A DNA stretch of 64,000 bases, from positions 1,302,001-1,366,000 of the forward strand of contig CP145412.1 in assembly GCA_036867785.1 (NCBI GenBank), given 5' to 3'. Source of the stretch: Plasmodiophora brassicae. Taxonomy: Eukaryota. Below, one piece after another: positions 26,016-35,719 of this stretch. Each line of letters opens with the position of its first letter. The first letter of the stretch is position 1. The notes under the pieces were generated by a model. It was given only the letters and a program-made list of their open reading frames with translations. It had not been told where the DNA came from and ran no database searches. The position numbers and the translations under genes were made by a program.

Positions 26016-29000
26016 TCATTGTGGTTCAGCAACTCGGTATCGGTCTGCCGCTGCCGGCGGGTCTGCGCTCCACTCGTCTGGTTGCCCGGACGAGGCCGAT
26101 GATGTTGCTATCCTAAGGCGCTTCTTGAGCGCCAGGTTCTCGCTGCGAAGCGTATAGAGCTGGAGGCGCATGTGAGCGATCTCCATATCCTTTTCGGTTT
26201 CATGGTCGCCTGTGTTCGTAAATGGGTCGTTGTGGTTGCCGGCGCCGGCATTATCGGTTTCAAGCAGGTTGCGACCGCTGCGGAACGATTGCCGAAGCTT
26301 GGCCCCTGTTAGCGGGCCCGCGTCTGGCTTGCGGGCATAGACAATCCTGGGGAGCGTCAGGCACAGGACGACCATGACGGTCACCACCTCCAGCGACGTG
26401 AACGACATGACGAACGATAACGTCGGGCTGGTGACCACGAACATGGACGTGGGAATGATGACTGTCGACGTGAAGAATATGGCGTACTGTGCTATACTCA
26501 ACGAGCGTGTCTCTGCGAGACGCTCCCAGTCAGAACGGGCGTCAGTCGACAATGGCTACGAAGCGGCCGCACCGTTAAATTCTCTGGGGATCCACCAGCT
26601 CCTCAACGAGACAATCACGCTGGCGACGACGATGCCGCCAAAGTACACGGCCAGGGAGGTCAGCATGTAGACGTCGTATGTGCAATACTTGTCGACGACG
26701 ATGCTCGTGCTGGTCCTGTCGAGCTCCATCGTGCTGATTTCAGGCGGTGACGCCAACATGCCGGCAGTGATGATGACCGCCATCCCCGTCGCCAGCATCA
26801 GGACGTGGCGTGCCACGGTCGTATCGTTCACAGCGACGACGTTCGACGTCTCGGTCCCGACGGCGGAGAATATCCTGAGCATTCGCAGGTTCTTGGCGAA
26901 GATCGTGGATAGGATGGTGACGACCAGCATCGGGAACCACGACATCCTGATGACGCACATGGTGACCGTCGACTCCCAGGCCAGCTGGATGGCCGACCCG
27001 GTCAACAGGCACGACAGGATGCAGATGACGCAGGTGAAACGGACGCTCACAGATCGAACCGCTCGCGTCCTGCGATATCTGATGATGCACCCGAGTGCCG
27101 CCAGGATGATCAGCGACGCGATGATCGATGTCGCGATCGCCAGACCCATGGTCACATCGTCCAGCTGATGTTCCACCTCGGCCATGTCCTGTCCAGCGGG
27201 CACTAATCGACACACTGGCCAGGCGATCGACTGCATCGGGATCTGGTTCACGTCCACATCGCCAGCAGGCACGTCCGGTCCTGTGAACGGTCAGTCGCGC
27301 GTTCTGCCTAGGGGCCCATATCCGGTACCCGTCATCGCTGCTGAACAGGCTGCCCTGTACGCGTAATCAGGCGTCGCTGTCGTGATGAAGGTGGGCCCAG
27401 CGTGGATCGTCCGCGGCGGCGACACGCTCTCGGTGAGGTTCGTGTCGAACACGAGCTCGTTGCCGCCCGTGATGGCGCGTACGAGCATGAGGACGTTCGG
27501 CAGGTACCCCTGCAGGAACGCGTTCTGGTCGACGGCGAAGAACCAGTTGCCCTGGCCCATGGCCGTTAACGCCGACGGGGTCGCCTGCCAGCACGCCCCA
27601 CTGATCTTGCCCTGCCCCAGACCGAACCTATCGCTTCATCAGCACGAAGAACGCCAGATCTCATCTCGCGGCCACCTTCCCGTCCCCTGCAGGACGTTGA
27701 TCGCGTAATCGACCATGTCGACGCCGGGGGCGACGAACAGGTCAGTACCGCTCGCGATGAACGGCGCCATTGCCGACGCGTACAGGGTCTCGTCGAGCGG
27801 GTCCGACAGGAAGGCGTAGTCAGCAGTGACACGCAGCAGCGTTAGGCGGTCGACAACGCCCAGGCAGCGATCTCGCAGGGCGGACACGCCCCGGGTTCCG
27901 TTGAACCCGGCGCCGTCGTACAGGCACGTGACATGGGCGAACCCGCCGGATGCGATCAGGTCGCCCGCCATCGCGCCCGACCCGTAATCCGGCATGAACA
28001 CGTTCACGTCGTACGCCGACGCTGACTGCACCATGGACAGGTCGTTGTGAACACTGACGACCGGCACCTGCCACGTCGCGTTCCCCACGATCGCCCGGGT
28101 TGCCGACAATGACGCGTCGGCGGCAATGCCCACGCCGATCAGGTTGGTCGACGGTATCGACGCGACGTGCGCCGCCGTTGACGAATCGGTGGGCGCGGCC
28201 GGCAGGTATTCACGCACCTGACGACACGTCAGCGACGGTGCGGGGGTGCGTGCGTGCCGGTCGCCTGCTACCTGGACGCCGGCCTCACGTGCCGCCAGGA
28301 TGATCCCGCTGCGCGCCTCCGCCCAGAACGCGTTGTCGGGCGCGCCGTGTACCCATTCGATGCGCCAGTGGGATCGGTCCCAGCAGAGGGCCGACCCGGT
28401 GCACATGGGGAACCCGGCGTCCTGTCGCGCCGCGTTCCCGATCGCGTTCGCGTCGACCGACGTGATCAGCCGGGGGCCCGTTTGCAGCATGGTCGTGGCG
28501 AGGCGCGACCGCGTCAGTCTCAGGGCGTACATGAGGGCGACGCTGAGGTACCCCTGCAGGTACGGCTGCGTGTCGACGAGGAACGGGACCAGGCTGTTGG
28601 GCAGCGCCATCTCCTTCGCAACGCGCTCCTGCATCTCGGTCGGGATGACGATCGTCGTGTTCGCCCCGAGGGATCGGACGGCCTGGATGACGTCGGCGGC
28701 AATGGTGCCCGTCGCGTAGATCGCTGTGACGCCGTCGTGGACGAGGTCGGCGACCTGGCCGGACAGGTTCTGGGCGACGACCTGGCCGCTGGACAGGCCC
28801 GCGCCCCGCATCGTTGCGATCCATCCCTGGCAGCGCAGGTCGTGGCTGGACAACGTGGCGACCTGGTTCAGGCAGACGGTGCTGTTCGCGTACGCCGGCA
28901 ACGTCGCCAGCAGGTGCGATGCCGCCCGCGCGCCCACGACCCGGTTGTCGGGGCCCACGTGGAACACGGGACGCACGGCCGCGTCGCCGAGGAATTGCTC

Positions 29001-29488
29001 GCCAGAGATCACACTGGCGAACGACACCGCCTGGCCCTGCAACGAACGGATCGTCCGCATCGGCGGCGACGACAGGCTCTGCGAATTGGGCGGCGTCAGC
29101 GCAGGGCGGCCGGGCGGGGCACGCAATGACGGACGCTGGAGGACAGCTGAGCGATGACGTTCGTGAACCCGAGATCGACGGCCCTGAGGATCGCGAGCGC
29201 CTGCGCCGTCGGGGAGAACACGTCGTTCGACCAGGTGTGCAGGGGCAGGCCGCGGTCGCTCGCCGCCCTGTTATCGTTCACCCGTCAGCACCGCTGGCCC
29301 ATCGCAAACGCAAACGCGAACACCGACTGCCTGGCGCCGGCCAGGAAGGCGGTGACGAACGGCGTCTTGTTGGGCTCGGCGACGATCACGGCGATCTTGA
29401 TGGCGCGCGGGTCGGTGCAGGGGCAACGCGCGTTCCGGAACAGGCGGTCCTCGACGGCGACGACACCGTCGTCGTCGTCATCTGCCAT
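26016..29488 (-). CDS. Class C (7tm_3) GPCR-like receptor with two tandem periplasmic sugar-binding-protein-like ectodomains
   Basis: VDTQPYLQGY...TGPRLIT and FAVDQNAFLQGY...GPTFIT (type I PBP C-terminal signature twice). Seven hydrophobic segments include AKNLRMLRIF, and IPREFNE is restored by intron 26513-26572. 5' end uncertain. Confidence 0.8.
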
Positions 29489-29821: not shown

Positions 29822-30439
29822 TCAGAACACGGGGCGGCGCCGCGTCGAGATGGTCCCCACCAGGTCGACCAGCTGGACAATGTCCTCGGCAGGTCCGCCC
29901 AGCTGCGTCGTGGCGGCGTGACTTGCCAGGTGGATCGCCTTCTTGACCGACTTCAGGTTGATCGAGTCGAGACTGGACTCGGTGAGGACAGCCACGGCCG
30001 CTCGGGCCTCCTTGCCGTCCTCGATATGCTTCTGTGAGCCAGTCCGGTCACGATTCTGCCTCGACGTGCCGACTGTGGGCGTACGGCTGCCATGGAATGC
30101 CAGGCGAACAGCCGAATGTAATCGGTGTAGGAGACGACGTCGTGGCAGGACGATTTGGCCACCATGGCCAGCAGATCTTGCAGCTCCTGCACGTCGTTGA
30201 GAGAGGCCATCCCCAAGTTCTGGGATAGAAGCCGGTACAGGTCGTCAATCGTGATGGATCCCGCTATCCCAAGCCGATGTCAGCTCGGACCGAAGCGCGG
30301 GAATCGGCGTCGTACAAGCGCTCGCATCGAACAGGCCGAACAGGGTCGTGACCTCCATCAAATCGGTCGCGTCGAGGTGCTTGTACTTCCGCGCAAAGCT
30401 CGGCTCATGTCGGGCGAGAAGCGCCATGGCGTTCGCCAT
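29822..30439 (-). CDS. Degenerate EF-hand/calmodulin-like protein; multi-exon
   Basis: LMEVTTLFGLFDAS, IDDLYRLL..LG, ELQDLLAMV....DVVSYTDYIRLF, SINLKSVKKAI. Confidence 0.5.
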
Positions 30440-30572
30440 GCCTGGCAGGGCGGCGCGGTGGGATCCGGACGCACCCACCATCGCCCCCGGGCGGGCAGTC
30501 ATCACTACTCGTACGCCAGTCGATCTCGTCGTCCTATCGTTACGGCAAGACCGTAACGGGACGCTCCACAAT

Positions 30573-31497
30573 TTACTTGACCTTCTTCATCTCAACGGCA
30601 TCGTCCTCTGGGACACCACCACGAAGGCTGGATGTGCAGTACCGGCAGCGGACAGCGCTGAGGCTGATTCGGCTGGCGAATCGGTCAGAAACGGGGACGC
30701 GGGCGCCAGGTCACGGGTGCAGCGGATCCCACCAGGTACAGAAGGGGCAGATCCGAGTCGCCGGTCCAATGCCCTGGACTCTCTCTTCCTCGGTAAACGC
30801 GTGGTTGTACACTGGTTCGCATGCCGGGTTCAGTCTGTGCAGGACGAGCACCTCGCGCGATGGCGAGTACCTTTCGCAACGATGTAGACGGCGAGGACCA
30901 GGATGAATCCGTTCAGCAACGCGTGTAGGAAGGCGCCCCAGTTCCTTCCCGGGGGCGTCAGAGCGCACATCAGGCACACGGCTTGCAAATAGCAACGTAC
31001 AGTATGACCGCCCCGGCTTTAGACGCTGAGTGAAACGCGCTTAAGAGCATGCGTCGTCATGTTGATGGGCGCCGAACATACCTGCGTCGGCGTTGTCGTA
31101 AAAGCAGGTCAGCGGCCCGCTTCCGCACTGGAGCACGATGAACATGTTCTTCAGGTCCCGCTCGATAGCTTGCACGAATCAGGACGTCAGTACGGTTGGT
31201 TCGGGTTGTACTTCCAGGCGCGCTCCGTTACGAAGAATGAACGCCAGGATTGGGGCGACGATATGGTCGGCGAGCGCCCGGACGAGGTTCGAGAAACAAC
31301 CGGCAACAACCTAAGGCTACCGTCTCAGCACCCGGCATATACCCATCCTGCCAAAGCGTATGGACCAATCCCATCGACATGTCGAACACCTTCCCGGTGC
31401 CGACCAGGCGCCGCAGCTCGCCGAACATCGTGAACGCTTTCTGACGGGCCACGCGCTCGAACCGCGTCTCCTCGTAGTCGTCATCGGCCATATGCAT
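30573..31497 (-). CDS. mscL: Large-conductance mechanosensitive channel MscL homolog with C-terminal Cys4 zinc ribbon; 6 exons
   Basis: Manual splicing gives GKVFDMSMGLVVAGCFSNLVRALADHIVAPILAF (TM1), DLKNMFIVL, ASKAGAVILNWGAFLHALLNGFILVLAVYIVAK (TM2) and TRICPFCTCRISLSAVRCRYCTSSL. Confidence 0.85.
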
Positions 31498-31964
31498 CCC
31501 GCCGAGACCGGCCGCCCAAACAGCAAACGCGATCAACAGGCTTGTCGACCAGCTTCAGACGCCTCGACGAAAAATAACAATGTGGTCCAGTGGCCACCCC
31601 CAGGCCAAGGTCGACCTGCGATTCGCAGGCGACAGCGAATGTCCTGCCAGGGCGGACAGGACCCGCAGGCGAGGGGCCGTCCGGTAGTCGGAGAACGTCG
31701 TGCGGTTTATTCGCTACTCAATGGTGGGTGGCCCGAAACGCGCGCAGGCGGCAGGCAGGGGCGGGCCGGTCGGTCGGCGGCGGGCGTCGGGGGGACGCCG
31801 GCGGGCGGAGGCCGCGTCCGGGGGGGCGCGTGCCTGGGGCAATGCTTGGCGGTCCGTGATCGCCGCTGGGCGGCGGGTGCCGATGGCCCGGGATTAGAAG
31901 TCACCGCCGCCGCTGCACACAGCGCGGGCAAAGTCCGAAACGCGCCTCGCCTGGTCGACCGGCG

Positions 31965-34900
31965 ATGGCGGCCGTCGCGTTCGCCAAGCTGCTCGGCGAC
32001 AACAACTTTGTGCACTATGTCACGAAGGAGACGCTGACCCTGGGGCGAACCGCCGCGCAGTCGGACGTCGTCCTCGGCGACAACAAGAACATGTCAGTGC
32101 GGTGCACCGCGTGGGTCGATCCTCGCCCGTGACGTTCGTGACAGATCGCGGTGTCATGCCCGGATCGCCTGGAACCCGGACACGTCGTCATTCGAGCTGA
32201 CATGCCTGTCGAAGAACGGGGTCTTTGTGGATGGGCAGTTGAGTGGGCCAAGCAATCCTCCAGTGCCCCTGCATAGTCGCACCCTCATTCAGGTGGGCGC
32301 CCGTAGCGTGCTCCGCCGGCTCGCCCCTCTCAGACGCTTCTGGTGCAGATTGGGCCTCGACTGATATACTTCCTTCTGCCCAAGTCGACGTCGACGACAG
32401 TCGCAGTGGATGGCGAAGGAGATGCGTCGCAGAACCCCCCGCGTGGTCTCCAAGTCAACACCGACCAGGCAACCACTGGCAAGAAGTGGAACAGGACGAA
32501 ACGAGAGCGAATCAGGATGGCGCTTATGCGCTACGGGTACGTTTCGTACTGCAAACGATCTAGTCCAGTGCATTGAACGCACCAAGGTTCGGTCGGTGGG
32601 ACGCGCTCGCTGGGATTCTAGACGATCGGGACTACTCTCTGGTCAACGTCCAGGTCTATTGCTGTCAGCTGGTGCAGCAGCTGATTGCCAGCTGCGATGA
32701 CGCGGCGCTGGCCGCCGGCCTTCGAGAGTTGCTGAGCACTGCGCCCGTTGCGATGCCCGATGAGGACAACCCAGATTCCTCGTTGGTCGACTGGTCGTCG
32801 TTGCAGAAGAATGCCAAGAAGTGGGCGACCAGGCTGATCCTTCTTCACGTACGTAGCGTTCTGCTCCGCCCCCAACTCGCCCAGTAACTCGAGTGCCATT
32901 TAGGAACTCAAGACAGCAATTGACATGTTCGGCGAGAAGGAACTGCTATCAGACATCGGCACCATTAAGGGTGTGCTTGCGTTCGCTCCTCGGACGACGA
33001 ATCCGAATCCATTCTGATGCCATCGTCAGGTCGTCCACTTGGAGGTCATTGGGGGCGCCAGGAAGATCTCGACCTGTGCCGTGGAATCTATCGCCACGGG
33101 TTTGGTGAATTCAACGCCATTCTCAATGACGAGGCTCTCTGCTTCAAGGGTCGATGGGCGAATCGCCAAGGTTTGAAGCGGCCGGTGGCGTTAGGCGTAC
33201 TGAGTGCACCCTGAATGGCGTTTGCAGAGGGTAGCAAAGCGGAAGCCGACGAGGAGAAGGAAGATGATGACGTTTCACAAACTGGTGTCACGGCGCTGGA
33301 CTCGGAAGCGGGTCCGCCTGCTGCTCCTGCGGGGACGGCTGCGACTCAGCCGGTATCCTCCTGTGGATCTACCTGTATCTGCAAACGTTTAATTGCGTTC
33401 TTCAGGTGTCCGAAGGCCAAGGCCTGCCCGAGTGGCCGCAGCACTTAGCGCTGATCGGACGGCTTAAGCGGATCCTGGACCTTCTGCGCGTCAAGATTTC
33501 GAAAAACTACAACGGCTCGGTGTTCAAGAACGGCGGTGGCATCAACAAGCGGAAGATCGACCAGCTCGGATCGGGGGCAGATATGTCAACGCCCAAGAAG
33601 GTGGGTCGTGTCCAAAGACGAGTTCGTGAGCGGGAACTGATTCGTCGACTATCGCGTAGACCAAGCTTACGGCTTCGCGGAAGAAGTCTTCAACAAAGAA
33701 ACGTGTGGATAGCTCCTGGACGATCAAAGATCAGGTACGTGCGCTTTCGGCAAAGCAACCCGAGAGTTGTAGCCGGGCTAACATCGGCATGCAGGCCGCC
33801 TTCCAGCGCGGCATTGTTGCTCAGGGTCACCCCCCTTCGTGGAACGTGTTCCGTAATGCGAACCCGTCGCTGGCTGATAAGCTGGATGCGGAAATGGACG
33901 ACTACTATGACAAGTTTATCGAAGCCGTTGATCGGACAGTTGTATGTTCAGCGTTCCGACGGCTGATCAGTGGTCTAACCCAACATAACAGATCGATTCG
34001 ACAGTGGAGGAACAGTCGGAACAGGCACCGGATGGTGACGGGTATGTGTTTCAGGTTGACGTGGTATGGCCGTCTGCTGACCTTCGTCGTCTCCAGGGAC
34101 GAATCGATGACGTTTACCGTGGGTGTCGCTGTGAAGATAAAGGAGCGCATCGACCTGTTTGACATCGTAATTCCTGTTGTGGTAGCGCGGGATTCTGATC
34201 AGAGGTGGCAGATTTGATCGTATGCGGGACATATTGGCTGTGGGAGATCTGAGGCTACTACACGTTCCGCCGGACCCTGCTCTCTCAGGATTCTACCAAT
34301 CATGGGCGGGCGAGCACGACCTGCAATTCCTCAAAGGTGTGGTCGAGCATGGCATCGGCAACTGGGCAGCGATATTCAAGGACCCGAATCTTCCGCTGCT
34401 GTCAAGTCTTCACGGTCTGCCGGCCGACACGAAGGTTCTGTCCCGTCGTCTTCAGGTACGATTTGCGGGTCCGCGTGACCTGATCCGTTATCCAATGGGC
34501 TGGTTTGGTTCAGCAAATCTTGTCGGCGGTCGGCCTCGATCTCGACGTCCCGCCTCTAAAGTCAAAGTATCAACCGCGTCACCCTGGCGCAAGTAGGAAC
34601 TCGCGTTTGTTTTAACAGGGTACATAAGCCTGATGTTATGCCTCACAGAACCAAGTGATAGTGCAGAAGGCCCTGGCGCTAAGCAGTCTGGAGCGATCCC
34701 ATCGCCAGTCGTATACGACGCCGATGGTCGTGTTGTTCTTCCGATCCAGGTCACGTCCAGCTTGAGACTCTTGTCCCTCGGTCTGAGGCATGCGTTCTGT
34801 TGTGCGCCCCGTATCTGATCCCACTCTGCCCGCAGGGACTGTCGTAAATGGACGCGGTTTCCGAGATGGCAAGCATGTGTTTCCCATCGGGTTCAAATCA

Positions 34901-35719
34901 GGTAACAAGGACGCCGACGTCTGCCTTCTGGCTGCTGATGTCATCGCGCTAGAACGGGACTACCCGTCGCTTGTCGACCCTGCTCGACGGTGTAAATACG
35001 TGTGCGAGGTTATCGAGGGCAGAGATGCCCGCAACGAGCCGTGTGCACAGTTTCGAGTGATTTGTGCTGACCTCCCTGATGAGCCGATCGTGGCGGACCG
35101 GCCCACTCCCGTCTGGAAGCAAATCGAGACAAGGTTTGAGCGGGAGGCCCCGTATCGCGTGGCGATGTGTTGACACTGGAGATACAGGTTGGACAGCAAG
35201 CGCAATACGAGCCGAAAGAGGTCAACGATCAATGGCATGGAGAAGTTCGGTCTGAACAACCCTCTGGTGATATCCCTGCTGTCGGAAAGCGCTGGCGCCG
35301 ACGGCGGCAGTGCGGGCAACCAACAGGCGCGCCCGATGGAACCTACCGTGTCCCATCAGTCGACAGAGCCTGCGCCACAGAACGGGCATGCCAGTGACTC
35401 GTCGCCCCCTGAGTCTGTATACGACGACTCGTACCGGGAAGACCAAGACGTGGTCATGCGTGATCGACTGCCGTTTGGTGGGCCTCGGGTGGCGGGGAAG
35501 GAGGCTGTCCGGGCATTGCCTGCAACGATGCCAATGCCCATGGCCGTAGACTCTGATGACGACATTGACGACGACGACGATGAGAGCCAGTTTGACGATG
35601 ACCCAGGGGAAGACGCTGACGCTGACGATGTCGGCGACGACGATCAGGAGGACGACTCAAGTGCTGCAGACGAAAGCAGTGGGCTGGAAAGCGACCATGG
35701 TCGCATAAGCGAACTGTGA
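31965..35719 (+). CDS. FHA + CHD7-like SANT/SLIDE-type C-terminal modules + FYRN/FYRC chromatin protein; multi-exon
   Basis: AFAKL..LTLGR..NMSRCHARI..SKNGVFVDG (FHA); ALMRYGFGRWD; EDLDLCRGIYRHGFG; WAGEHDLQFLKGVVEHGIGNW; FPIGFKS..YPSLVDP..KYVCEV (FYRN); VWKQI..NGMEKFGL (FYRC); acidic tail. Confidence 0.7.

What the first reader, a model, noticed from the sequence alone, without database searches (positions are those of the whole stretch)
30573..31497. Hidden six-exon bacterial-type MscL channel with a Cys4 zinc-ribbon tail
Seen: five short GT-AG introns join into a ~190-aa protein with MscL-like TM1, loop and TM2, followed by CPFC-x10-CRYC; the ORF track shows only fragments. Established: MscL is the prokaryotic osmotic safety valve, is patchy in eukaryotes, and some homologs carry this Cys tail. 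TM1 reads MSMGLVVAGCF where E. coli has LAVGVIIGAAF, so gate residues diverge. Inference: an old, intron-colonised acquisition that may protect wall-less stages from osmotic shock.
Basis: partly seen in the sequence, partly recalled or inferred. Interest (0 to 1): 0.7.

Follow-up and report, generated by a model that had tools for sequence, protein, structure and literature searches.

The report
Clubroot parasite MscL channel gene
This is a real, spliced and transcribed gene of the clubroot parasite Plasmodiophora brassicae for a pressure-release (MscL-type) channel with a zinc-binding tail; public databases already annotate it as such, so it is a sound but ordinary find with an unusually altered pore helix.

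Summary
The gene is real and lies exactly at 30573-31497 on the minus strand. It has seven exons and six GT-AG introns of 55-63 nt, not six and five: a 25-nt micro-exon (31001-31025) was missed. Spliced contigs from four studies show these junctions.

The 191-aa product equals, bar two residues, a Plasmodiophora brassicae protein that UniRef already names a large-conductance mechanosensitive channel. It scores 60.5 bits on Pfam MscL against a cut-off of 27.4.

The CPFC-x10-CRYC tail marks a large MscL subfamily. It occurs in 148 of the 150 best relatives and in bacteria of many phyla, but in only 3 of 23 MscLs in an even sample of one phylum.

On a tree the protein joins a eukaryotic clade of early-diverging fungi plus plasmodiophorids, apart from bacteria (100/99). 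It is the fast-evolving one of two P. brassicae paralogues. Its altered S1/TM1 residues are shared with Spongospora.

Channel function, membrane location and any role in wall-less stages are untested. Verdict: already annotated, with modest interest.

The parts
31366..31497 (-). Exon 1 (codons 1-44): start ATG, acidic N-terminus, S1 helix, start of TM1
   Evidence: Its 44-aa peptide is 100% identical to P0001. The junction to exon 2 is seen in 4 of 4 runs.
31311..31365 (-). Intron 1, 55 nt, GT..AG
   Evidence: Spliced out in contigs of X1, X4, X5 and X8 (joint 31308>31364, cut +2).
31232..31310 (-). Exon 2 (codons 45-71): rest of the pore-lining TM1
   Evidence: It is the only single fragment with a weak Pfam MscL hit (E 0.033).
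31169..31231 (-). Intron 2, 63 nt, GT..AG
   Evidence: Joint 31168>31232 in 4 of 4 runs.
31082..31168 (-). Exon 3 (codons 71-100): outer loop with Cys85 and Cys92
   Evidence: A loop Cys pair occurs in 38 of 64 eukaryote-clade rows and 0 of 36 bacterial rows.
31026..31081 (-). Intron 3, 56 nt, GT..AG
   Evidence: Joint 31025>31082 in 4 of 4 runs.
31001..31025 (-).
   Evidence: skipping it gives a stop at codon 110. It lies between exons 3 and 5 within single contigs of X4, X5 and X8. Its residues align to the conserved stretch just before TM2 in solved MscLs.
30945..31000 (-). Intron 4, 56 nt, GT..AG
   Evidence: Joint 30943>31000 (cut +1) in 4 of 4 runs. X1 also holds a 115-nt unspliced piece, 30915-31028.
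30871..30944 (-). Exon 5 (codons 108-133): TM2
   Evidence: Hydropathy peak at residues 114-130. Modelled helix 110-144.
30812..30870 (-). Intron 5, 59 nt, GT..AG
   Evidence: Joint 30811>30871 in 4 of 4 runs.
30733..30811 (-). Exon 6 (codons 133-159): linker and first zinc knuckle (CPFC)
   Evidence: Cys154 and Cys157 are invariant in the family.
30673..30732 (-). Intron 6, 60 nt, GT..AG; it splits the zinc ribbon between its two knuckles
   Evidence: Joint 30672>30733 in X1, X4 and X5. It is retained in the X8 contig, which also differs at 30730, the +3 base of the donor.
30573..30672 (-). Exon 7 (codons 159-191 plus stop TAA at 30575-30573): second zinc knuckle (CRYC) and a short acidic tail
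   Evidence: Cys168 and Cys171 are invariant; Ala165, Thr172 and Ser173 match the family consensus.

Best explanation
The locus is an expressed nuclear gene of Plasmodiophora brassicae, or a very close strain of it. It has seven exons and six short spliceosomal introns and encodes a 191-residue subunit of the MscL family, in the subfamily whose C-terminus is a Cys4 zinc ribbon.

By homology the subunit has a cytoplasmic N-terminal amphipathic helix, a pore-lining TM1, and an outer loop, here with a Cys pair that probably forms a disulfide. TM2 follows, then a roughly 20-residue linker and a small cytoplasmic zinc ribbon in the place where E. coli MscL has its C-terminal helix (recalled). Several copies (five in solved MscLs, recalled) would form a channel that opens when membrane tension rises and releases solutes.

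This copy is the fast-evolving one of two P. brassicae paralogues. Many otherwise conserved S1 and TM1 residues are replaced, and the same replacements occur in Spongospora. So it is a conserved, re-tuned plasmodiophorid channel rather than a decaying copy.

Shown: gene structure, splicing, family membership, the conserved tail, the eukaryotic clade, and conservation of the derived residues. Inferred: oligomer, topology, zinc binding, tension gating, and any role in wall-less zoospores or plasmodia.
For: - Gene model and identity: the model and its 191-aa product match P0001 except I147V and K191E.
- Splicing: all six introns are removed at the predicted bases in single contigs of X4 and X5. 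X8 shows five of six, and X1 shows six across several contigs.
- Family: Pfam MscL 60.5 bits against a cut-off of 27.4, E 2.6e-16, residues 24-142. phmmer matches 8 distinct solved MscL sequences, and 9tiu_A aligns residues 25-144 to 4-109.
- Fold: the AF2 model has mean pLDDT 79.4 with helices 36-69 and 110-144 and a roughly 90-pLDDT ribbon. Its four best structural matches are all MscL (Z 6.0, 5.3, 5.3, 4.0).
- Tail: 148 of 150 best relatives carry CxxC-x10/11-CxxC. The four Cys are invariant in alignment A1 and in 62 eukaryote-clade and 36 bacterial rows.
- Bacterial use: in 3 of 3 bacterial genomes checked, the tailed gene is the only MscL match.
- Constraint: TM1 is identical in Plasmodiophora and Spongospora. 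5 of 5 coding differences in the X8 strain are synonymous.
- Pore: the positions aligned to the residues I recall as the E. coli gate (L19, V23) stay hydrophobic (M40, L44), and G22 is kept as G43.
Against: - All eight NCBIfam MscL equivalog models score below their cut-offs (best 63.2 against 159; TIGR00220 36.1 against 71).
- About a dozen positions conserved at 75-100% in relatives are replaced: F28L, F31L, N36K, A41S, V42M, G47A, A49C, S56A, V58A, D60H, F120G, F128Y. Gating could therefore differ strongly or be lost.
- Foldseek found no PDB match at E <= 0.001 (best 4y7k_D, E 0.027), and the VIA Z-scores are only middling.
- The tail reaches no Pfam zinc-ribbon cut-off (UPF0547 11.3 bits against 29).
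- The runs are Logan contigs whose RNA label is a guess, so expression level, stage and strand are unknown.
- No experiment on any eukaryotic MscL turned up in my searches.
Confidence: 0.7

Rival explanations
1. The divergent copy is no longer a stand-alone emergency valve. It could be a modifying subunit that co-assembles with the canonical paralogue (PBRA_002036, P0166). It could also be a channel with a changed threshold or selectivity, used for something other than osmotic rescue, such as solute exchange by the wall-less plasmodium inside the host cell.
For: A second paralogue with canonical residues exists. The window copy sits on a very long stem (2.45 changes per column). It has lost the two conserved S1 phenylalanines, the conserved Asn and a TM1 glycine. 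These derived residues are nevertheless conserved in Spongospora, which fits a new constrained role.
Against: The pore positions aligned to the recalled gate stay hydrophobic and the overall MscL architecture is intact. Nothing here tests co-assembly; the complex-prediction job never ran.
Confidence: 0.22
2. The channel sits in an internal membrane (mitochondrion, ER or a vacuole) rather than the plasma membrane.
For: The NCBI name of P0001 carries the tag '(mitochondrion)'. Eukaryote-clade members have longer N- and C-terminal extensions than the bacterial ones: a median of 28 against 6 residues after the last Cys.
Against: The record's longest contig is 1.68 Mb and the gene has spliceosomal introns, so it is nuclear and the tag looks like an annotation artefact. 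The first 24 residues hold 6 acidic and 4 basic residues, unlike a typical mitochondrial presequence (recalled rule). A conserved Cys pair in the outer loop suits an oxidising outside or lumen, which would allow the secretory pathway or the cell surface.
Confidence: 0.15
3. The gene is a recent direct transfer from bacteria, or bacterial contamination of the assembly.
For: MscL is mainly prokaryotic, and the tailed form occurs in many bacterial phyla.
Against: The gene has six spliceosomal introns that are removed in transcript contigs. An orthologue exists in Spongospora. It lies on the eukaryotic side of a 100/99 split from 12 bacterial sequences, and a 96 split from 36. It shares eukaryote-clade traits: the loop Cys pair, and Trp110.
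Confidence: 0.01
4. The gene is a decaying, non-functional paralogue.
For: It has many replacements at conserved positions and scores low on the family models.
Against: The frame is open. All splice sites are used. TM1 is identical to Spongospora's. All 5 coding differences between strains are synonymous. The four zinc ligands are intact.
Confidence: 0.03

Closest known systems
Canonical prokaryotic MscL (solved: 9tiu/28oa 136-142 aa, 2OAR, 3HZQ, 4Y7K/4Y7J)
   Same: It matches Pfam PF01741 above the cut-off. The alignment runs from the S1 helix through TM2. The four best structural matches of the model are these MscL entries. The order S1 helix, TM1, loop, TM2 is the same.
   Different: No solved sequence aligns beyond query residue 148, so none covers the Cys4 tail. 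The window protein replaces many conserved S1 and TM1 residues, fails the NCBIfam equivalog cut-offs, has an outer-loop Cys pair, and is encoded by a seven-exon eukaryotic gene.
Bacterial MscL with a C-terminal Cys4 zinc ribbon (e.g. loci L001-L080; Sorangium, Vitreoscilla, Paenibacillus)
   Same: It has the same tail: CxxC-x10-CxxC with the conserved Ala, and Thr-Ser after the last Cys. The tail sits at the same place after TM2.
   Different: The bacterial proteins are 132-177 aa, with a median of 6 residues after the last Cys and no loop Cys (0 of 36). They keep the canonical TM1. They sit on the other side of the 100/99 split. In one evenly sampled phylum the tailed form is a minority, 3 of 23 MscLs.
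Fungal MscL-zinc-ribbon proteins annotated 'large conductance mechanosensitive channel' (Batrachochytrium, Spizellomyces, Allomyces, Globomyces, Polychytrium, Mortierella, Podila and others)
   Same: They share the eukaryotic clade, an N-terminal extension and the tail. The chytrid ones also share the loop Cys pair and often Trp at query position 110.
   Different: Identity is only 23-31%. The fungal proteins keep the canonical GNV.DLAVG...G.AF TM1. The plasmodiophorid branch is much longer.
Second P. brassicae paralogue PBRA_002036 (P0166, 179 aa)
   Same: Same organism and same architecture, with 36% identity over 158 residues, the loop Cys pair, the NWG motif and the tail. A single plasmodiophorid origin of both copies is not rejected (p-AU 0.485).
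   Different: P0166 keeps the family-consensus residues at the positions where the window copy and Spongospora differ. It is not encoded in this window.

Membership tests
MscL (Pfam PF01741) | Score above the curated Pfam gathering cut-off | tested here: met
   The annotated protein P0001 differs from the window product at 2 residues. It scores 60.5 bits against 27.4, E 2.6e-16, residues 24-142 on profile 1-103 of 123.
MscL (NCBIfam equivalogs, e.g. TIGR00220, NF010557) | Score above the equivalog cut-off, meaning the same function is assumed | tested here: not met
   All 8 MscL models hit but fall below their cut-offs: NF010557 63.2 against 159, TIGR00220 36.1 against 71. These models are built for prokaryotic annotation.
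MscL | N-terminal amphipathic helix, two transmembrane helices joined by an outer loop, and a fold like solved MscL | tested here: met
   AF2 helices at 8-33, 36-69 and 110-144. Hydropathy peaks at residues 61-63 and 114-130. The top four VIA matches are MscL, Z 6.0 to 4.0. Foldseek's best hits are MscL, but at E 0.027 and 0.07, so the structural support is modest.
MscL | Conserved S1/TM1 signature (F..F, G-N-V-x-D-L-A-V-G-x-I-I-G-x-A-F) | tested here: inconclusive
   G35, V37, D39, G43 and F50 are kept. F28, F31, N36, A41, V42, G47 and A49 are replaced, identically in Spongospora. The positions aligned to the recalled hydrophobic gate remain hydrophobic.
MscL | Homo-oligomeric (pentameric) pore | not tested
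MscL | Opening by membrane tension; rescue from hypo-osmotic shock | not testable with these tools
   This needs patch clamp or shock-survival assays.
MscL-zinc-ribbon subfamily | CxxC-x10-CxxC directly after the post-TM2 linker, with conserved Ala between the knuckles and Thr-Ser after the last Cys | tested here: met
   The protein has C154, C157, A165, C168, C171, T172 and S173. The motif is present in 148 of 150 best relatives and 76 of 80 bacterial loci.
Zinc ribbon (Pfam UPF0547 / DZR / zf-RanBP-like) | Profile match above cut-off, or a clear structural match, and zinc binding | tested here: inconclusive
   UPF0547 scores 11.3 bits against 29. Relatives reach 16-21 bits, also below the cut-off. 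The modelled tail aligns to RanBP2/NZF fingers at Z about 3, with rmsd 0.8-1.2 A over 24-25 residues. Zinc binding is not testable here.

The most novel reading that the evidence does not exclude
Plasmodiophorids keep two MscL-zinc-ribbon channels. This one has been rebuilt at its S1 anchor and pore helix into a channel with new gating. For example, it could be a low-threshold or regulated solute pore of the wall-less plasmodium or zoospore, with the cytoplasmic zinc ribbon acting as a redox, zinc or partner-binding switch under the pore. That would make the tail a so far undescribed regulatory module of a widespread MscL subfamily in bacteria, fungi and plasmodiophorids.
Probability: 0.12. 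Interest if true: 0.6.

Novelty: already known. Interest (0 to 1): 0.3.

Why it matters
No paper in the searchable library deals with an MscL of Plasmodiophora or with a zinc-ribbon tail on MscL, and I found no functional study of any eukaryotic MscL.

The clubroot parasite spends most of its life without a wall, as I recall, so a tension-release channel could matter for its survival in soil water and inside host cells. The tailed MscL subfamily is large and spans bacteria, fungi and plasmodiophorids, yet the role of its tail is unknown. This divergent, conserved copy offers a natural variant for testing which S1 and TM1 residues set gating.

As a genome-scan finding, however, it re-discovers a gene that databases already name correctly.

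Tried and rejected
- Single-exon Pfam scan: only 1 of 6 fragments gave a sub-threshold MscL hit, so the exons alone could not settle membership.
- First splice script: it had one boundary off by a base and gave a false frameshift. This was corrected.
- Five-intron models: four keep the frame open, but none appears as a joint in the contigs.
- Whole genome: none is held for the window, so the paralogue's gene structure and intron positions could not be compared.
- RNA runs: no listed holder is on record as RNA. The four runs laid are contigs whose RNA label is a guess. They show presence of the spliced form, not level, stage or strand.
- Bigger AU test: on the 100-row tree it did not finish in two 288-s runs. 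I used a 41-row set instead.
- Profile search with the eukaryote alignment: it listed mostly unnamed or bacterial proteins and added no new eukaryotic lineages.
- Foldseek against PDB: no match at E <= 0.001.
There is no result either way.
- Literature: ten searches found nothing on the topic. Three papers that I recalled or found cited were not held. The statement that fungi carry MscL homologues rests on database names and on one passing remark about an unpublished MscL-like knockout in a nematode-trapping fungus (PMC13463886, passages only).
- Earlier notes of this scan near the place: none.

Full report
**What is in the sequence**

On the minus strand an ATG at 31497 opens a frame that breaks off after 44 codons. 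Stop-to-stop ORFs of the region show only fragments, in all three minus-strand frames.

Chaining the fragments through GT..AG boundaries gives seven exons:
- 31497-31366
- 31310-31232
- 31168-31082
- 31025-31001
- 30944-30871
- 30811-30733
- 30672-30573

The six introns are 55, 63, 56, 56, 59 and 60 nt long. Five of them carry a CTGA(C/G/A) word near the acceptor, readable in the print; I counted no chance expectation for this. The coding sequence is 576 nt and gives a 191-residue protein.

A 25-nt micro-exon (31001-31025) was missed, and without it the frame shifts to a stop at codon 110. Four five-intron alternatives do keep the frame open, for example 31082 joined to 30981, giving 195 aa. 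None of them is seen in transcript contigs.

**Transcript evidence**

The index listed 24 runs, of which 20 hold part of the stretch, from ten studies. None is on record as RNA, and the 'RNA?' labels are guesses.

I laid four runs from four studies. All are Logan contigs.
- X4 and X5: one contig each carries all six joints at exactly the predicted bases.
- X8: one contig carries five of the six joints and retains intron 6.
- X1: the joints are spread over several contigs, and there is also a 115-nt unspliced piece (30915-31028).

The micro-exon lies between exons 3 and 5 within single records of X4, X5 and X8. Contigs cannot give level, strand or stage, and whether the joined form also stands in DNA runs was not reported in that call. 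The window itself holds the introns, so cDNA is the simple reading.

**Identity**

The exon-1 peptide found a 191-aa database protein, P0001, at 100% identity. NCBI names it 'unnamed protein product (mitochondrion) [Plasmodiophora brassicae]' and UniRef 'Large-conductance mec...'. A Pfam MscL hit is precomputed for it.

My spliced product differs from P0001 only at I147V and K191E. The window is therefore P. brassicae or a very close strain, and the gene is already annotated. The record's longest contig is 1.68 Mb, and with spliceosomal introns the '(mitochondrion)' tag looks like an annotation artefact.

**Family tests**

- Pfam: P0001 scores 60.5 bits on MscL against a cut-off of 27.4, E 2.6e-16, residues 24-142.
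- NCBIfam: all eight MscL equivalog models hit but stay below their cut-offs, the best being 63.2 against 159.
- Solved structures by sequence: phmmer matches eight distinct solved MscL sequences. The 136-aa chain 9tiu_A aligns residues 25-144 to its 4-109, and the M. acetivorans fusion aligns the micro-exon residues to the conserved stretch before TM2.
- Model: an AlphaFold2 model built on 32 aligned relatives has mean pLDDT 79.4, helices at 8-33, 36-69 and 110-144, and a small two-strand ribbon of about 90 pLDDT at 151-162.
- Foldseek: the two best PDB hits are MscL, but only at E 0.027 and 0.07.
- VIA-align: the top four are all MscL entries, at Z 6.0, 5.3, 5.3 and 4.0.
- Tail fold: it resembles RanBP2/NZF-type fingers and ribosomal L40e only weakly. 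It reaches no Pfam zinc-ribbon cut-off.

**The tail is a family trait**

A full HMMER scan of 1.84 billion representatives gave 1958 hits at E <= 0.001 and 276 at E <= 1e-10. The best alignments run to about query residue 175, so they include the tail.

Of the 150 listed, 148 carry CxxC-x10/11-CxxC at the same place. The two exceptions are an unspliced ORF artefact of this locus (P0002) and a partial Spongospora protein (P0003). The four Cys, an Ala between the knuckles and the Thr-Ser after them are conserved.

In one-per-species prokaryotic genomes, 593 of 600 pattern matches encode relatives. Of the best 80, taken from more than 20 phylum labels, 76 carry the tail. That choice is biased, because the query itself had a tail.

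Two less biased checks:
- In 3 of 3 bacterial genomes checked, the tailed gene is the only MscL match.
- In an even sample of 61 genomes of one phylum, 23 have an MscL. Three of those 23 are tailed, one being the seed genome, and one could not be read.

So the tail is a widespread minority form. None of the eight solved sequences aligns past residue 148. Two earlier notes of this scan, e1-5364312 and e1-699726, had also met tailed MscLs, in a phage and in alphaproteobacteria.

**Where the gene belongs**

I looked up 30 clusters. Seventeen carry an organism name, and all of these are eukaryotes:
- Chytrids: Globomyces, Zopfochytrium, Batrachochytrium, Spizellomyces (two genes), Entophlyctis, Chytriomyces, Polychytrium.
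- Hyaloraphidium.
- Blastoclads: Allomyces, Sorochytrium.
- Others: Mortierella (two), Podila, Calcarisporiella, Piptocephalis.
- A second P. brassicae protein, PBRA_002036 (P0166).

The taxonomic groupings of these genera are recalled. The Atlas adds Ascomycota-dominated MscL clusters as nearest neighbours by features. Spongospora subterranea has a partial orthologue with 61% identity.

Tree results:
- FastTree, 228 rows: 64 rows, including all named eukaryotes, formed one group with no bacterial locus inside.
- Quick IQ-TREE, 100 rows: the split had SH-aLRT 96. Most 'eukaryote' rows there were labelled from the first tree, which is partly circular.
- Careful IQ-TREE, 41 rows (LG+C20): 29 eukaryote-clade rows separated from 12 bacterial loci at 100/99. 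Window plus Spongospora had 100/100 on a very long stem (2.45). The pair sat with the second paralogue in a chytrid-rich group at 94/83, not starred, and the bootstrap had not settled.

AU tests reject neither of two alternatives:
- A single clade of all three plasmodiophorid sequences (p 0.485).
- A clade of the 16 named fungi that excludes the plasmodiophorids (p 0.365).

The acquisition is therefore old, predating the Plasmodiophora-Spongospora split, and shares its origin with the fungal genes. Whether it was inherited or passed between fungi and plasmodiophorids is open.

Two traits support the eukaryotic grouping:
- A Cys pair in the outer loop: 38 of 64 eukaryote-clade rows against 0 of 36 bacterial rows. 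Both P. brassicae paralogues and the chytrids have it.
- Trp at query position 110: 29 of 64 against 1 of 36.

**What is unusual about this copy**

Compared with columns conserved at 75-100% in relatives, the window protein has these replacements: F28L, F31L, N36K, A41S, V42M, G47A, A49C, S56A, V58A, D60H, F120G and F128Y. Nearly all are shared with Spongospora where that partial sequence exists. The second paralogue keeps the consensus residues.

The stretch GTGKVFDMSMGLVVAGCFS is identical in the two genera. All 5 coding differences in the X8 strain are synonymous. This points to a constrained, re-tuned protein, not decay.

In the alignment to 9tiu_A, the query number minus 21 gives the chain number through TM1. 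The residues I recall as the E. coli hydrophobic gate (L19, V23) correspond to M40 and L44. G22 is kept. G26 becomes Ala, and the two S1 phenylalanines become Leu. The functional meaning of those E. coli positions is recalled, not tested here.

**Mechanism proposed**

By homology this is a tension-gated oligomeric pore with both ends in the cytoplasm and the zinc ribbon hanging below the pore. The outer loop is probably disulfide-stapled.

I put about 0.97 on family membership and about 0.55-0.6 on it working as a mechanosensitive release channel. Its use for wall-less stages is plausible but untested. The named relatives include fungi that I recall as lacking zoospores, so the family is not tied to zoospores.

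**Literature**

Nine searches combined MscL with one of: Plasmodiophora; fungi and oomycetes; 'zinc ribbon'; Neurospora; chytrid; horizontal transfer; 'zinc finger'; fungi plus Phytophthora; or the full channel name with zoospore. A tenth combined 'Plasmodiophora brassicae' with mechanosensitive. They found nothing on this gene or on the tail.

I read listings only, plus passages of five papers. The only relevant line is a remark on an unpublished MscL-like knockout in a nematode-trapping fungus (PMC13463886). Subscription reviews that may describe eukaryotic MscLs were not held.

**Verdict**

Novelty: already known. Interest: 0.3. The open points are the role of the zinc ribbon and the rebuilt pore helix.

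Noticed in passing
window 30673-30732 (intron 6) and 30730: The X8 contig, a diverged strain with 17 base differences and one inserted base in 1.5 kb, retains intron 6. It also has C>G at 30730, the +3 base of that intron's donor on the minus strand. Retention would end the protein soon after the first zinc knuckle. One contig only.
   Followed up: partly
window about 29830-30503 (minus), with a further intron at 30264-30315: Another minus-strand gene seems to start about 70 nt after the MscL stop. Contigs of X4 and X8 run on from the MscL gene into it and skip a 52-nt GT..AG intron; their loose ends match window 30234-30263. Two translated pieces had no Pfam hit.
   Followed up: partly
window 27639-29270 (minus): An unbroken 543-aa frame hits the bacterial-type periplasmic binding protein domain Peripla_BP_4 (55.1 bits against a cut-off of 35.1). 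This is a second prokaryote-flavoured domain about 1.3 kb from the MscL gene.
   Followed up: no
not in the window: protein P0166 (PBRA_002036): P. brassicae has a second, more canonical MscL-zinc-ribbon paralogue of 179 aa, 36% identical to this one. tblastn finds no second copy in the window.
   Followed up: partly
protein P0063 (1414 aa, unnamed source): A VPS11-like protein carries an MscL domain and the zinc-ribbon tail at its C-end. It is probably two neighbouring genes merged by a gene model, but this was not checked. P0059 and P0117 are close relatives.
   Followed up: no
window 34186-34596 (+) and 34787-35173 (+): Frames here hit a CHD1/Hrp3 HTH domain and an FYRN domain. These are ordinary eukaryotic chromatin-protein exons nearby.
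   Followed up: no
window 31700-31900: A very G+C-rich stretch with G-runs lies upstream of the MscL start. Contigs of X1, X4 and X8 run through it to the end of the laid stretch at 31800; X5 stops at 31747. So the 5' end of the transcript, or an upstream gene on the same contigs, lies further up.
   Followed up: no
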